A DNA stretch of 47,466 nucleotides from Armatimonadota bacterium (GCA_043754515.1 JAYUUO010000081.1:1-47466); one strand, 5' to 3'; positions 9,001 to 21,000 are shown, counted from the stretch's first letter. A program made the numbers.

Positions 9001-12000
9001 TCGCGCCGCTCGTCGCGCAGGATGCGCCGGCCCTCCAGGAACGCCTTCCAGTGGTCGAAATAGACCAGGTGCTTGTAGCCGTTCGTGCCCTCCAGCACCC
9101 GCGCCGCGTGGACATCGGGGAGCGGGCGCTCGTCCTTCATGATCAGCCACGGGTAGAATGGCACCGTCTCCAAAACGGTGTCTTCGGTGTCTTTAGGACG
9201 CGTGAACAAAGTCGCGGTCGGGGGGGTAGCGCGGGTGTCGGTCTCCACGGCGACGATGCGCTGGCGGCTATCGGTGCCATATAGCGCGGCATCCAGATCG
9301 CGCTTGGTCGGGACGGGATGGCCAGCGTCGGGCGTCAAGGCGGTGGGTTCGGGGAAGTCGGCGGGTTCGGTTTGCACGGCTTGCATTGTACCGCGCCGGG
9401 GGTTCGGCTGGGATATACTACAAGCGACAGTTGGAAAGGAACCCGATCCGATGACCTGGGAGCAGATTCGTACGACGTACCCCGACCGATGGGTGCTGAT
9501 GGAAGTCGCTGAAGTCGCACGTCGAAGGCGACCGGTGTCTACGAGGAGTTGAGCGTGCTTGACACCGTGGATGAGAACGCCGACATTTTTCCGCGCTACA
9601 GAGATTATGAGAAGCGGTTCCCGGAGCGGGAGATTCTGTTTATACACGGCTCCCGCGTTGATCCCGATGTTCGCGTCATCAACCGCTTCGGCGCGAAGGT
9701 ATGCCGTGACTGCGATTGGGATACACGGCGGGTTGCCGTTCGTGACGCTGGACGTTTCGCAAGGTGGAGCTACCGTTACCTTGCAAAATAGGTTACTCGC
9801 CACCGGCTGTTCGCGGACGATTTTCGCGACAGACAGCGTCTCGGGTGTCGGAGTCGTGCCGGACGCGGACGCCGGTCTGCGCCGGATGGTCGGCAGCGAC
9901 GGCGTGGAGCGGGTAGTAGAAGCACAAGCCGACGCCGTTATTATGGACGGTATCCGCGTGGAAAACATCACGGTCCAACTCGGGACCCTTGACTACGGCG
10001 TCGCCATAGATGGAATCGTTGGCCTCGACTTGCTCCACGCGACACGCGCGACGATTGATCTTGACATGCTCGAACTGCGCGCGAAATAATGTGCGTCTAG
10101 GAACGCCCCGACATGGCAAACCGCGCTTACCTCTACGCAACCGAAACTTACGAGACCGGGGGGTGGCACGACTGGTACAACCGGAACAGCCAGACAGTAC
10201 CATACGGCGACTCGCGCCACACGCTCCCTTTTGCGTGGCTCTTCTTTTACACGCCCCGCGACATTCGGATTCACGACGAGGGCACATGGAAAGTCGTTCG
10301 TCTCATCGCCCCAAAAGCCGAGGCCATCGCCCGGTTCGAGGCGCGCCTTCCGCTCCTGTCTCGCATCACCGAAAGCCGCGACGACTCCGATAACAATGTC
10401 GCCGATCTTCTGGCCGTGGTGAGGTCATGGGGCGGCGAGTACCTTAGTCTCGACGCTGACATGGTGGTTGACACGCTCGACGAGTTGGCAGTGCCGCTAT
10501 TCGAGTCTCTTCTGCGGAGTTTAGACGAATATCCACCTGACATCGCGCGGATCGTTAAAAACGCGTCCGACTTGAACAGCATTCTAGACCGGGCGGCATA
10601 TCGCGAGACACGAGCCGAAACCTTCCGAAACAATCTAGTCGGTGCCTGGTACGCGGGACACGCGCCCGGCACCAGTTAGAGGTGCGCGGGAGCGGGAAAC
10701 TCAGCCGTCATCTGCCGTTCAGGAAGCCCGAAACGTCCGCCTTCAGTTTCGAGAGCGACGGCGAATGAATATACATCATGTCATAGCGACCAAACTGCCA
10801 TGATCGTGCTTCTAAGCTGTTATTCCCTTTCCTCTTCTACCTTTCCTCGTGCGAAGGGTACATGGAAAAAATAATGGTGAATTGATTATTTTTGACTGAG
10901 TAATGTGAGGTCATGTTACGCAGTCAAAGAATGATATTGGCGTTCGGAGAGGCTATGTAAAAACTAGCAATCTAAGAAAGCTGAACGCGATTAACCCGGC
11001 TGGTCTCTCCCTCCAAGGAGATGTGGTATCGATTTGGGAAACGGTTCGCAAATGTTTCTTGATGTGAAACAATAACCACGCGCTCTAGAGTCTCTCCCAA
11101 TCTATGCATGACATCTGCCATGCCTTCCAGGTTCTTAGGGTCTAGACTGCCGAACCCCTCATCGATCATGACGGATCGAAGCCTTGTTTGCCCACCGACG
11201 ACACATTGGCCCAATGCGAGAGCGAGTGCCACGCTGACACGAAACTGTTGTGAACCAGACAGACCTTTGAGCAGAATTGGCTCCCCTGGTAACATCGTGT
11301 TTGCACATACGAGATTCAGAGCGGTGTTCGCATTGCGCCCTTCAATCGCTTTGGATTCCGAAAGGTGTAAAGTTCCTCCAGAAAGTTGCGCAAGCGTTTC
11401 GTTTGCCTTGCAGGTAATTAGCTGTTCCGCATTGCGGATCAATTCGCGTTGCAAGCCTTCATTCCCCAAGCAATCAGCCAAAAATTTCCATAAATCGCGA
11501 TCTCTGATAGTATCGTCGTACTCCTTTTGCACAACTTCACGCTCAGATTGTTGGCGTCGTAGTGCGTCACGATGGTTCAACGCACTCCGTTCAGCAATTT
11601 CGGTGTCGCGGGCTATCTCCTTGGCGACATACAGTTTCTCCTCTGCTTCAGGTAGCCCTAGCCGTGCATCATCGGGAAGAGACTCCATCTGGCGGGAAAG
11701 ATTGGTAGCCTCACTACGTTTGACCGTGAGTTCATATTCGGCATTGTCAAGACCCTCTAACATCTGTACGGCTGTCTGAGTCATTTCACACTCAGACTCT
11801 AATCGGGCGAGTTCGGTCTCAACCCTAATCGCGGGGTGGTCACGCCAAGCTGCAGGAAGTGCTCCGGTATCTTCACTCAGAGTTCGCGAACGCTCTTCGA
11901 CACCGGCTTGCCACTGATCAATCACCTGCTCAATGCCCTTCCAATCTTTGTGTTTTTCGCGCCAACGTTCGGCACTTTCAGCAAGTGATTTCATAGCCTG

Positions 12001-18000: not shown

Positions 18001-21000
18001 ATGGATAGCGCATGAAATATCTCCTTCCTTTTTCCGCAACGCCTCGAGGCGCTGACGCATCACTGCCCCGCTAACCAGAAAATCTGTTGCGAGGCGGTCT
18101 TGCCGTGCCACATTAGATCGCGCGGTGAGCGCGTCCTGCCTCATGCGCAAAATGTCTTCGGGTACCAACAGGTGAGCGGCAAAAGCATTTGCCTCGCGTT
18201 CCCGCGCTTCCAAATTACTGTCATCTTCCCCGTCGCCGCCGCTACTTGCCGGGTTAAAACCATCGAATAATCCGGGACGGAATGCTTCAGGGCTATCTCG
18301 TACGCTCTCCCGCCAGTTTTGTAGCGCGGGTCGAAAATGCAGAAAGAGGTGCCCCAATTCATGCGCCACCGAGAACCGTCGCCGTGTCACAGAGTCGTTC
18401 TGGTTGACGAACAAAAATGCCATGTCACCTACCGCGTACAGGAAACCCGATAGCGGTTCGTCCCGATTCCTTGCAAGGATTGACAAAGGTTCTCGTAAGA
18501 CCCGCCGCCGTGTCAGGAATGTTTCCGCAACACCTGCAGTCAATCCGGGTAATTCCACGCACGATATAGCGAACCGCTCTAACACAGGCGCGAGGGGGGC
18601 AACAGGAAAAATTTGGGATGGAGGTGGGACATCTACCTCATCATAAACGGATAAAACTACTCGCGCCCAATCACCTCTATCTCTCATCATTTCTCTCCGC
18701 TCTTGTCGCCAGAAGGTCTTTTATCGTTTCGTAATCGTTCCCGTCGTGCGGCGGCGAGGCGGAACGTTCCTTCACGTTCCATAGCCACGGCAAGTAACGT
18801 TTCCTGCACAAACCGTACCACTGATACTCCGATGCCCTGACCTACCTGTGCTACACGTGTCAGGAGTGTGCGGGTGTCGCGCTGAGTCAGACTGGTAGGA
18901 ACCTGCTCATCCCCCGGTAGAGACTCCAGTCGGTCGGCAATACGTGAAATAATCACATGTTCCGCAGGCTGCGTCATTTCAGTTGGGGCATCACTGCGCA
19001 GACGCACGGCAACATCTCGCCATGTTACAGGGGGGACGGGAAGCTCTACTGCAAACTGACGGTTCTCCGCGTTTAAACCGGTCAGGCTGCGCACCAAGGG
19101 AGCGGAAAAGGTCTGCGATGCCGCCGCCACTACCCGCTCTTCCGTTTGATGTTGTTCCTCGTATGCCAGATGCGTTTCCCATATGGCATCTACAAGAATA
19201 GGACTATTCTTGGCTTCAGCAAGCAGATTTGCTTGTTCCTCCAGATCGCCCGAATCCACCGCGCAAAGATAACGGAGCAAAAACAGTTCTTTAATGTCTT
19301 GTGAGATCATCTGGTTGCTCCTGTGTTGATGGCCGACCCGACACGGGGACGAAGCATCTCACGCTCTTCGGTTGATATCGAATACTTTAGCCGCGTCAGG
19401 GCGCGATGTAGGCGTACCCGTACCGTTCCTGGTAGAACCACTTGCCCGCTTTTTGAATCTGTCAATTTTTGCGCCATTTCCTCGCTACTATTGCCTTCCA
19501 GAACTATCCCCTGGATGAGGTCGCGGTCTGACTCGGAGCAGGATGCCAGTACCCGTTCCACCCACAAAGATCCAGTGACGTCTCGCTCCGTTTGCTGTTC
19601 GCTCTGGATACGCTCCCAAACGCCGGATATGGTGTCCCCCGACCCACTATCACCGGTTTCAACAATCCGCTTCTTGTTCTCAGCAAACAACCGCTCCTTC
19701 CATTGCTTTGCGCAGTTGTTGGCGATACCCAGAATCCATTGCCGTACTGTGCCCCGGCTCGGATCGAACCGGGACGTTTTAGCGAAGACTACTTTGGCAA
19801 CCTCAACTAACAACTCGCGGGACGCTTCGTCGGGACTTAAACCGAGAGGCTTGATGATAGGACGCACTATGCTTTTCAGGACAGCGATGACACTGCTTTC
19901 GTTTTGTTGCCACCAATGAACGATGAAATCGTTTTTGCTTTGTTCTGAATCGTCCAGTGGTAACGAACTGTTATATTGGTATGAGTCTTTTAAATGCATC
20001 CTCAGCTATATCTCCGCACCATTCTTCATAAACTAATTGCGTTATTAGCAACATTTTGTTACAAGAATCGAGCCACTGCTTAAATTATTTATGATTTGAG
20101 GAAAATCCAAAAGCGTCCCCGCTTTTTAACGATTGATCTATACTTGCAGTCTTCTGGCATGAATCTTGCATTGCTGTTTTCAATAACAAACCTGACAGAC
20201 TCATAGAGTCGTACGCCTTTTGAAGGAGAAGCCACCATTGAGTTATCGTGACCGAAATGATCAGCCCCTGTACCGAAGTTGCTACGACGCTGTCGGGCAG
20301 TCGCTCAACGAGGTGAAAGAACTCAGAGCGCAGGGTATCTTCGGCTTGCTCCGATTGCGCTGGGGGGCATGGATCGAGGAACGCGCCGCCGGGACACATC
20401 ACTCGCCGCGCGAAATCCCGACAGGTCGTTCTCCTCGCGCAACAGAAATTGGTAGAGCAGACCATCTCCACGGCACAGGCGGTAGAAGCGATGAATCAGG
20501 ATAACGAACGCCAGGCCATCGGTACGATGGTATTCGGGCAACGCGAAATGCTCGCCGAAGCGGCTCTGCAACCGGGAGGACTTATTGCCGCTCCGCCCAG
20601 GCAGATCAACGCGGTGCCATTTCCCGGTGACGATGATAACGCATCTGGGTATGGCGTGGTTTCTGCCGCCGATGGAACCGTCGCTTCCAGTGCCGCACCC
20701 ATGCGCCCGTATATGACCGATGTGCAGATCGATAATCTCGCAAAGCAATTCCTCGCCCGGTTCCCTATCGGGGACGACTACGTGCGCGAGGTTCGGGGTC
20801 AAGAAGATGCGGGAAGCCGCCCGAGAGAGCGAAGTCCGGCGACAACAGGACGCGGCACGGTTCGCGGCGGCACGGGCGCGGGAAGCGAAGCAGGCGAAGG
20901 TTAGCCCGCCCGTACTAACGACGAACCCAACCCCGACCGGAGATGTTTTCAGGAGCCGGTACGCTTCGATGGACGCGGCGTACAACCGGCGCGACGCGGA

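What a model noticed while it worked through the whole genome (the two positions that open the first line are those of the whole stretch)
10972..19999. Mobile seven-gene sigma/M78-protease-controlled NurA-HerA-Mre11-Rad50 cassette in a defence island
A low-GC seven-gene operon on C81 encodes an ECF-type sigma factor (g01500), a 207-aa unknown protein (g01499), an M78/IrrE-like metallopeptidase (g01498), NurA (g01497), HerA (g01496), Mre11/SbcD (g01495) and Rad50/SbcC (g01494), next to CBASS and a type I R-M/SoFic/SLFN cluster. Boldest reading: this is an undescribed, horizontally mobile anti-phage (or damage-inducible DNA-end-destroying) system in which an archaeal-type end-resection machine is kept silent by a sigma/anti-sigma pair that the M78 protease releases on infection. 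New would be a defence role and a protease-gated sigma switch for the HerA-NurA-Mre11-Rad50 machine in bacteria.
Evidence so far: Gene table: g01494-g01500 on one strand, GC 0.50-0.56 against 0.62 for the genome. g01496 homologues are named HerA-like ATPase (687 hits at E<=1e-5 among 8000 scored, call 50); homologues of g01497 carry PF09376 NurA. PADLOC: g01498 hits CapP 7.9e-18, g01494 hits LmuB 7.8e-20; no hit for g01495, g01496, g01497, g01499, g01500. Pfam at E<=0.01: g01498 Peptidase_M78 8e-18, g01500 Sigma70_r4_2 0.007. In 25 related loci from Armatimonadota, Planctomycetota (Gemmataceae, Isosphaeraceae, Limnoglobus roseus) and Alcaligenaceae/Bacteroidales MAGs the order M78-NurA-HerA-Mre11-Rad50 recurs: tblastn finds the M78 gene beside NurA in 22 of 25, Mre11 in 22, Rad50 in 21; a Sigma70_r2/r4 protein lies two [...]
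(Added by a program. Inside this text positions count along the whole contig: contig position 1 is position 1 of the stretch shown here. "Call 12" and the like, gene names such as g00115 and contig names such as C1 are that model's own, and its searches are not shown. The text may have been shortened before it was handed on; [...] marks where a part breaks off. The agent that wrote the report below was given it as the finding of a first reader that could run no searches.)

Follow-up and report, generated by a model that had tools for sequence, protein, structure and literature searches.

The report
Protease-linked sigma switch for DNA-end shredder
A mobile seven-gene bacterial cassette carries four enzymes that chew broken DNA ends, plus its own on-switch (a sigma factor held by a soluble partner, beside a damage-sensor-type protease), a control design not found in the papers searched, and it often sits next to DNA-targeting immune systems.

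Summary
The seven-gene operon is real, intact and mobile: it occurs in several phyla, on two plasmids, and at a polymorphic island edge here. The scan found the same cassette earlier in another genome (e1-3951594/5).

The 207-aa protein is a soluble anti-sigma: predicted complex 0.75 vs best control 0.02, and its N-terminal domain heads membrane anti-sigmas beside related ECF sigmas. A conserved ECF-type promoter (20063-20034) precedes the operon, and also precedes herA-sbcDC where the operon is split. Natural anti-sigma/M78 fusions exist. A sister triplet (sigma, XRE protein, M78-UvrD-nuclease fusion) lies in the same genome. Cleavage by the M78 remains inferred.

The nuclease part is Deinococcus-type, and a bacterial nurA-herA-sbcDC operon is already reported in Oceanithermus. 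Defence is plausible but unproven: known defence systems flank 14 of 34 loci vs 2 of 13 controls (p 0.09), and Cas3/Cas6, Argonaute or Wadjet genes follow sbcC directly in 8 loci. Some lineages keep it in housekeeping contexts.

Best reading: an inducible DNA-end-destroying module that partners immunity. New variant of known kinds; interest 0.68.

The parts
20034..20063 (-). Predicted ECF-type promoter of the operon (-35 TGTAAC at 20063-20058, 17-nt spacer, -10 GCAATT at 20040-20035), 34 nt before the sigma start
   Evidence: Motif in 20 of 32 sigma upstream regions with 0 of 20 shuffles reaching the leave-one-out score; 4 of 4 held-out cassette loci with 0 of 40 shuffles; top-scoring site of the own genome, though in the training set
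19307..19999 (-). ECF (group 4) sigma factor, 230 aa
18687..19310 (-). Soluble anti-sigma factor, 207 aa: three-helix anti-sigma domain (about residues 4-60), long helix, helical C-terminal domain of unassigned fold ending in a conserved LAAAR motif; no transmembrane helix
17998..18690 (-). M78 (ImmA/IrrE/CapP-type) zinc peptidase, 230 aa; HELGH 110-114 and E164 invariant; peptidase plus HTH, too short for the GAF domain of IrrE/CapP
16895..18013 (-). NurA nuclease, bacterial type; both DG motifs (D88, D219) invariant
14920..16908 (-). HerA ATPase/translocase of the 7F6D (Deinococcus) family; variant Walker A at 234 and Walker B at 516
13650..14891 (-). SbcD/Mre11 nuclease with the metallophosphoesterase motifs intact; a second copy besides the host's own sbcD on C181
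10972..13650 (-). SbcC/Rad50 ATPase with Walker A, CxxC hook, signature, Walker B/D-loop and His switch
10752..10800 (.). Left edge of the island: assembly fork, depth step and GC step about 190 nt past the sbcC stop
   Evidence: Run X1: depth 25.8 left of the fork, 15.8 across 10752-25637, plus a 10.9-depth branch that leaves after 10781 (X1 may be the source sample). GC falls from 0.58 to 0.41 at 10801
22947..35040 (-). Neighbouring defence genes (context, not part of the cassette): CBASS cyclase and HNH-SAVED effector; type I R-M with Schlafen and SoFic genes

Best explanation
A mobile, self-contained, inducible DNA-end-destroying module. At rest the ECF sigma is held between its regions 2 and 4 by the N-terminal domain of the soluble anti-sigma (predicted and supported by homology). 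On a stress signal, most likely DNA damage or free DNA ends during infection or the entry of a mobile element (inferred from the M78 family), the M78 peptidase cleaves the anti-sigma (inferred). The freed sigma fires its own promoter, a positive feedback loop (promoter supported by conservation), and produces SbcCD, which recognises and opens blocked DNA ends, and HerA-NurA, which pumps and degrades from them (family knowledge). The likely purpose is to shred linear or cut foreign DNA and to serve neighbouring DNA-targeting immunity (Cas, Argonaute, Wadjet, R-M), as RecBCD/AddAB do (recalled). The tight switch would limit the cost to the host's own repair.
For: Anti-sigma: complex score 0.75 vs best of 3 controls 0.02; runs agree in at least 80% of contacts; partner pLDDT at least 63; this mark was reached by 116 of 157 solved and 2 of 215 mismatched pairs; interface is partner residues 4-54 against sigma 36-101 and 165-201 (a pass may reflect likeness to solved sigma/anti-sigma pairs). 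The same domain heads anti-sigma-like proteins with a transmembrane helix directly behind related ECF sigmas in 9 of 12 Chloroflexota loci with N-terminal-only matches. Promoter; the motif also precedes several of those membrane-anti-sigma ECFs (6 of 9 with at most 1 of 40 shuffles). An exact pattern occurs 3 times each in G091 and G286, and both times includes the sigma operon and the distant herA-sbcDC operon. Protease link: all 16 of 80 metagenome M78 loci in this subfamily have the anti-sigma upstream (14 with flank) and NurA downstream (13 with flank), and the other 64 have neither. 8 of the 150 best representatives, and one intact cassette (G181), are natural anti-sigma/M78 fusions. In a sister triplet the middle protein carries an XRE HTH, the usual M78 substrate. 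Immune link: WYL-Cas3/Cas6, Cas3, Piwi or Wadjet genes follow sbcC on the same strand within 4-200 nt in 8 loci. Deinococcus nurA-herA deletion improves MMC/UV survival (PMC9960219 passages). The host keeps a separate sbcCD.
Against: No experiment. The M78 lacks the GAF domain that forms the ssDNA groove of CapP/IrrE (PMC13228613), so the signal is unknown. The anti-sigma C-terminal domain shows no XRE match. Enrichment for known defence systems is not significant (14 of 34 vs 2 of 13, p 0.09; 0.21 if a borderline control is counted), and the loci are not independent. 12 of 34 loci have no defence neighbour. In four Abditibacteriaceae genomes the operon is split among housekeeping genes, and Pyrinomonadaceae keep it at a shared housekeeping site.
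Confidence: 0.5

Rival explanations
1. An inducible accessory double-strand-break repair module: a portable equivalent of the archaeal NurA-HerA-Mre11-Rad50 resection pathway, switched on by damage (desiccation, UV). It sits in islands because mobile cargo accumulates there.
For: All four enzymes have intact motifs. The archaeal operon is UV-induced and used for repair (PMC5448004 passages). IrrE, the M78 prototype, controls repair genes. Split, domesticated copies lie among housekeeping genes with the promoter kept. 12 of 34 loci lack defence neighbours.
Against: Deinococcus nurA-herA deletion raises damage resistance. The distribution is very patchy (3 of 60 relatives; 8 of 251 phylum genomes; 1 strong match in 301 cyanobacterial-phylum genomes). 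Immune operons are placed directly behind sbcC in 8 loci.
Confidence: 0.25
2. A stand-alone anti-phage system: infection triggers the protease, and the four enzymes alone destroy phage DNA or kill the cell.
For: Island location, plasmid carriage and population polymorphism. CapP, the closest solved M78, regulates immune operons. HerA ATPases occur in known defence systems (Sir2-HerA listing).
Against: No dedicated sensor or toxic effector. None of sigma, anti-sigma, NurA or HerA matches PADLOC. Housekeeping contexts occur in several lineages.
Confidence: 0.15
3. A function for the mobile element itself: DNA processing for transfer, integration or exclusion of competing elements, induced like ICEBs1 by an ImmA-type protease.
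For: Found on a MOBV plasmid and beside a relaxase/coupling-protein/integrase block (G080). ImmA controls ICE mobilisation. Thermus HepA affects DNA mobilisation.
Against: The promoter was found before the cassette's own genes and not before mobility genes. Most loci have no transfer genes nearby.
Confidence: 0.1

Closest known systems
Archaeal nurA-herA-mre11-rad50 operon; bacterial nurA-hepA-sbcD-sbcC of Oceanithermus profundus; Deinococcus NurA-HerA (PDB 7F6D)
   Same: Same four enzyme families in one operon; HerA and NurA belong to the 7F6D family; the four-gene bacterial arrangement is noted in PMC5448004.
   Different: Mobile, patchy, second copy of sbcCD, and headed by a dedicated sigma/anti-sigma/M78 triplet. 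A 2026 review states that bacterial nurA lacks stable synteny with herA/mre11/rad50 (PMC13748450), which these loci contradict. Whether Oceanithermus has the regulators was not tested.
CapP/CapH, IrrE/DdrO, ImmA/ImmR (M78 peptidase plus XRE repressor)
   Same: M78 fold and intact HExxH+E; the gene sits beside its presumed substrate; natural fusions occur as for CapH-CapP. Lau et al. note 24 CBASS capH/capP loci with a sigma70-family gene.
   Different: The partner is an anti-sigma, not a DNA-binding repressor; there is no GAF domain; the genes are co-oriented at the head of the operon rather than divergent; the output is activation by a sigma factor.
ECF sigma / class I anti-sigma pairs released by proteolysis (RseA, RsiW type; recalled)
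   Same: Adjacent sigma/anti-sigma genes, three-helix domain between sigma regions 2 and 4, autoregulatory promoter; relatives with the canonical domain-TM-extracytoplasmic layout.
   Different: The anti-sigma is soluble, and the linked protease is a cytoplasmic M78 zinc peptidase rather than membrane site-1/site-2 proteases; the regulon is DNA-end enzymes, not envelope stress genes.
Lamassu, Wadjet and other SMC-type defence systems
   Same: SMC-family ATPase with a nuclease partner; PADLOC LmuB E 7.8e-20.
   Different: The hit is generic; SbcC/Rad50 models score better; no LmuA/LmuC or Jet subunits in the cassette.

Membership tests
NurA-HerA-Mre11-Rad50 end-processing operon | All four families in one operon with catalytic motifs | tested here: met
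NurA-HerA-Mre11-Rad50 end-processing operon | Archaeal-type HerA/NurA sequences | tested here: not met
   Best match is the bacterial 7F6D HerA (E 1.8e-50); all other HerA chains E 0.067 or worse
NurA-HerA-Mre11-Rad50 end-processing operon | Resects DNA ends for homologous recombination in vivo | not testable with these tools
   needs experiments
ECF sigma / class I anti-sigma | Sigma with regions 2 and 4 only | tested here: met
ECF sigma / class I anti-sigma | Adjacent gene with an N-terminal helical domain that binds the sigma | tested here: met
   Predicted, not measured: 0.75 vs 0.02. Same domain in TM-anchored partners of related sigmas. Fold match to PupR 5CAM Z 5.7, rmsd 1.9, 53 aligned, tied with unrelated bundles
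ECF sigma / class I anti-sigma | Autoregulatory bipartite promoter | tested here: met
   (conservation only; no transcript data)
ECF sigma / class I anti-sigma | Assignment to a numbered ECF group | tested here: inconclusive
   No IrrE/DUF955/M78/NurA/SbcC/DUF87 term in the held part of the PMC7826278 supplement, which was cut when stored
CapP/CapH, IrrE/DdrO, ImmA/ImmR | M78 peptidase with HExxH and distal Glu | tested here: met
   invariant in 23 of 23
CapP/CapH, IrrE/DdrO, ImmA/ImmR | XRE-family repressor as partner | tested here: inconclusive
   No XRE match for the 207-aa family by Pfam (0 of 22 members), HHalign or fold search; a degenerate HTH is not excluded. Met in the sister triplet
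CapP/IrrE | C-terminal GAF domain forming the ssDNA groove | tested here: not met
   The family ends after the HTH, at about 230-270 aa; CapP/IrrE layout
CapP/CapH, IrrE/DdrO, ImmA/ImmR | Signal-dependent cleavage of the partner | not testable with these tools
   inferred from fusions and gene order
Catalogued anti-phage system (PADLOC 2.0) | Gene set matches a defined system | tested here: not met
   No hits for sigma, anti-sigma, NurA or HerA; only generic hits for M78, SbcC and SbcD. The catalogue dates from 2023

The most novel reading that the evidence does not exclude
A general, undescribed class of bacterial switch in which a cytoplasmic M78 damage-sensing protease releases an ECF sigma by cutting a soluble anti-sigma. 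It is used at least twice to arm DNA-end-destroying machines (NurA-HerA-SbcCD; M78-fused UvrD/RecB-type helicase-nuclease), and these act as an inducible immune arm that shreds invader DNA and supplies guides or spacers to co-transcribed Argonaute, CRISPR-Cas and Wadjet systems.
Probability: 0.3. Interest if true: 0.88.

Novelty: new variant of a known kind. Interest (0 to 1): 0.68.

Why it matters
M78 proteases are known to act by destroying XRE repressors, and anti-sigmas to be destroyed by membrane proteases. This cassette appears to join the two into a cytoplasmic, positive-feedback switch. It would also give a testable answer to an open question stated in the literature: why bacteria keep NurA-HerA although deleting it improves repair in Deinococcus. 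A compact three-gene switch with a defined promoter could be a portable damage or infection sensor. Two cultured hosts carry the whole cassette on plasmids (NZ_CP128402, AP018313), so it can be tested directly.

Tried and rejected
Viral contigs: no relative of the NurA family among 78 pattern matches.

Fold searches of the anti-sigma: Foldseek gave nothing at E<=0.001; the wide search gave only tied helical bundles; the Atlas search of its C-terminal part gave no usable hit.

Homology of the two middle proteins (this cassette vs the sister triplet): only the N-termini align, weakly (probability 0.8% then 10%), so common origin is not claimed.

Promoter: an unseeded Gibbs search fell into a T-rich optimum, so the motif was seeded from three sites and then tested on held-out loci. 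No wider regulon was found: the third exact sites in G091, G286 and G285 lie inside or away from genes, and own-genome hits point to no repair or defence set. The exact pattern was absent before herA in G063 and G285, the two split genomes whose triplet looks broken or displaced. The motif was not found before two sister-triplet sigmas.

Other: no att-like repeat found for the island edge. No RNA holder listed. Whether hosts have AddAB/RecBCD was not settled. The careful tree did not finish; the quick tree is used. The AF2 model of a natural fusion (pLDDT 87, pTM 0.64) could not be inspected for substrate-in-active-site contacts. The 2004 FtsK-HerA survey was not held.

Rejected: artefact or shadow ORFs (conserved order and invariant catalytic residues); the host's core sbcCD (a separate copy exists); Lamassu membership.
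Full report
OBSERVATION. The seven ORFs exist at the stated positions on the minus strand and are tightly packed. 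Their GC (0.50-0.56) and GC3 (0.47-0.56) fall below the genome (GC 0.624; 5th-percentile GC3 0.62 among 1302 long ORFs). The sigma family matches solved ECF sigmas (E 1.6e-15). The M78 family matches CapP, IrrE and PprI by sequence and fold and keeps HELGH and E164 invariant in 23 sequences. NurA has no Pfam hit alone, but its profile matches the NurA of 7F6D (E 1.1e-10) and both DG motifs are invariant. HerA matches the HerA of 7F6D at E 1.8e-50, far above any other HerA. SbcD and SbcC keep all catalytic motifs, and the genome has a second sbcCD on C181/C152.

RECURRENCE AND MOBILITY. Of 24 genome loci found with NurA, 21 have the M78 upstream, 20 have the 207-aa gene and the sigma, 18 have HerA next, and 13 show all seven in order. 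An independent scan with the M78 alignment gave 80 metagenome loci. The 16 that score as this subfamily (132 bits or more) all have the 207-aa gene upstream (14 with flank) and NurA downstream (13 with flank); the other 64 have neither. The triplet is therefore dedicated to this cargo. It is patchy: 3 of 60 relatives, 8 of 251 genomes of the phylum including this one, 1 strong match in 301 cyanobacterial-phylum genomes and 3 full-length matches in 301 Chloroflexota-phylum genomes. The complete cassette lies on plasmids of Ca. Chlorohelix allophototropha and Aulosira laxa NIES-50. In a quick HerA tree of 33 rows, cyanobacterial, acidobacterial, Chloroflexota and own-phylum sequences each fall in both main clades (no formal clade test). 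In run X1, which may be the source sample, the assembly forks at 10752-10781: depth is 25.8 to the left, 15.8 over the cassette and CBASS, and a 10.9 branch leaves. GC drops at the same place. This suggests that only part of the population carries the island, whose edge lies about 190 nt past sbcC; contig depth is not a share of cells.

THE SWITCH. The 207-aa family is large (953 representatives at E<=0.001, 323 at 1e-10), has no Pfam family and has no transmembrane helix. Four lines make it an anti-sigma.
(i) The predicted complex with the sigma scores 0.75 against a best control of 0.02. Runs agree in at least 80% of contacts, partner pLDDT is at least 63, and residues 4-54 sit between sigma regions 2 and 4. 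This mark was reached by 116 of 157 solved and 2 of 215 mismatched pairs, and likeness to solved sigma/anti-sigma pairs may contribute.
(ii) In Chloroflexota the same N-terminal domain heads longer proteins with a transmembrane helix and an extracytoplasmic domain, directly behind close relatives of this sigma, in 9 of the 12 loci retrieved for N-terminal-only matches. This is the canonical anti-sigma layout.
(iii) Its fold matches the PupR anti-sigma domain (Z 5.7, rmsd 1.9, 53 residues), though tied with unrelated bundles.
(iv) A bipartite motif, TGT(A/C)A(C/G)-N17-(G/C)AAT-like, precedes the sigma in 20 of 32 loci with no shuffle reaching its score, in 4 of 4 held-out cassette loci, and in 6 of 9 membrane-anti-sigma loci at 1 or fewer of 40 shuffles.

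In four Abditibacteriaceae genomes herA-sbcD-sbcC lies apart from nurA. In the two with an intact triplet, an exact pattern occurs only 3 times per genome, and it includes both the sigma operon and the herA operon. The pattern came from the two sigma promoters, with one position relaxed after I had seen the herA sites. The other two genomes lack it there.

The protease is tied to the anti-sigma by natural fusions: 8 of the 150 best representatives and one inside an intact cassette (G181). That it cuts the anti-sigma is inference. Against a simple CapP analogy, it lacks the GAF domain that binds ssDNA in CapP and IrrE, and the anti-sigma's C-terminal domain shows no XRE match.

A SISTER ARCHITECTURE. 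Contig C26 of this genome carries sigma, then a helical-plus-XRE protein, then a 1238-aa M78-UvrD-PD-(D/E)XK fusion. A profile of the middle protein hit 18 of 251 phylum genomes, and in 10 of them an M78-UvrD fusion follows directly. Its HTH matches solved XRE regulators, including 7T5U (recalled to be CapH). So the sigma / middle protein / M78 plan is used with a second DNA-end helicase-nuclease, and there the partner has the usual M78 substrate fold. Homology between the two middle proteins is weak and limited to the N-terminus.

DEFENCE OR REPAIR. I scored 34 non-split loci other than the window; L044, L045 and other loci with almost no flank were left out, and flank lengths differ. Known defence genes flank 14 of them: Cas3/Cas6/Cas1, Argonaute, Wadjet, BREX, R-M, CBASS, a DUF4007/PAPS-reductase cluster, a DUF4011 helicase, AbiEii and a DUF499/DUF1156 cluster (system names for the domain-only clusters are recalled). 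Eight have only a recurring DUF6884/TGT/second NurA-HerA cluster, and 12 have none. Thirteen arbitrary 14-kb regions of cassette-bearing genomes had 2, or 3 with a borderline case. One-sided p is 0.09 (0.21) for known systems and 0.003 (0.012) with the candidate cluster; kin are not independent. More telling is position: in 8 loci WYL-Cas3, Cas3, WYL-Cas6, Piwi or Wadjet genes begin 4-200 nt after sbcC on the same strand, and all of these target DNA. In Deinococcus, deleting nurA-herA improves survival of MMC and UV, which fits a costly end-destroying activity that needs a tight switch. On the other side, Abditibacteriaceae, Pyrinomonadaceae and G181 hold it among housekeeping genes, which fits a domesticated stress or repair role. 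I put inducible end destruction allied to immunity at 0.5, accessory repair at 0.25, stand-alone defence at 0.15 and a mobile-element function at 0.1.

WHAT IS KNOWN. Papers seen as passages: PMC13748450 (says bacterial nurA lacks synteny with herA/mre11/rad50, and asserts an antiviral role for bacterial NurA-HerA without data that I saw), PMC9960219, PMC5448004 (O. profundus has sbcD and sbcC behind nurA-hepA) and bioRxiv 2022.04.27.489752 (24 capH/capP CBASS loci have a sigma70 gene; its Table S1 was not seen and may bear on novelty). PMC13228613: first quarter of the text. PMC7826278: term searches in a truncated supplement. PMC5587795, on co-activation of CRISPR adaptation and repair genes in Sulfolobus: listing and start of abstract only. 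Nine searches listed no paper describing an M78-linked anti-sigma or this seven-gene cassette; subscription literature is largely not covered. The scan's earlier notes e1-3951594 and e1-3951595 describe the same cassette and switch in another genome; they are not independent support.

VERDICT. A real, mobile and dedicated regulatory-plus-nuclease cassette. The enzyme set is a known kind; the sigma/soluble anti-sigma/M78 control is well supported in its sigma-anti-sigma-promoter part, inferred in its proteolytic step, and apparently undescribed. New variant of a known kind, interest 0.68.

Noticed in passing
L149:10090-15480 (G000:C26); also L150, L151, L157-L164, L171: Sister triplet: sigma, helical-plus-XRE protein, and M78-UvrD-PD-(D/E)XK fusion; the fusion follows the XRE protein in 10 of 18 matching genomes out of 251. 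Worth its own finding.
   Followed up: partly
L154:1270-4476 (G000:C43): A second M78-UvrD-nuclease fusion (1068 aa) beside rpsL/rpsG-like genes, with no sigma or partner gene seen next to it.
   Followed up: no
L007:2396-7427; L123:8503-14567; L179:16859-17635 and 27274-28335; DUF6884 also in L008, L011, L012, L016, L017, L043: Recurring DUF6884 plus TGT-like (with or without second NurA-HerA and QueC) cluster beside the cassette; a candidate 7-deazaguanine DNA-modification or defence system. A DUF6884 paper search listed only two general papers.
   Followed up: partly
L184-L189, L193-L195: Chloroflexota ECF sigma / membrane anti-sigma pairs sharing the same anti-sigma domain and promoter motif; no Pfam family was found for this domain.
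   Followed up: partly
window 35490-39028 and L029:12802-17461: A five-gene block (two HTH proteins, YdjM, Mrr, XRE) is shared upstream of the cassette in G011. There BREX and a serine recombinase lie beyond it, while here CBASS and type I R-M lie between the block and the cassette: a common element with swapped defence cargo.
   Followed up: partly
window 7113-9971 and 9559-10089: A family B DNA polymerase gene and an aspartyl-protease-like gene matching PADLOC PDC-M08B, just outside the island's left edge.
   Followed up: no
window 39055-46783: NlpC/P60, a 1070-aa NTPase-like protein and DUF932, suggestive of an integrative element; no integrase or att repeat was found in the window.
   Followed up: no
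L129 (G063:C4) and L003: In two split Abditibacteriaceae genomes the triplet is broken (frameshifted anti-sigma) or lacks sigma and anti-sigma beside the M78, and the promoter before herA is degenerate.
   Followed up: partly
L035:1766-4280: QueC plus SMODS cyclase cluster (type IV CBASS-like) near a cassette copy.
   Followed up: no
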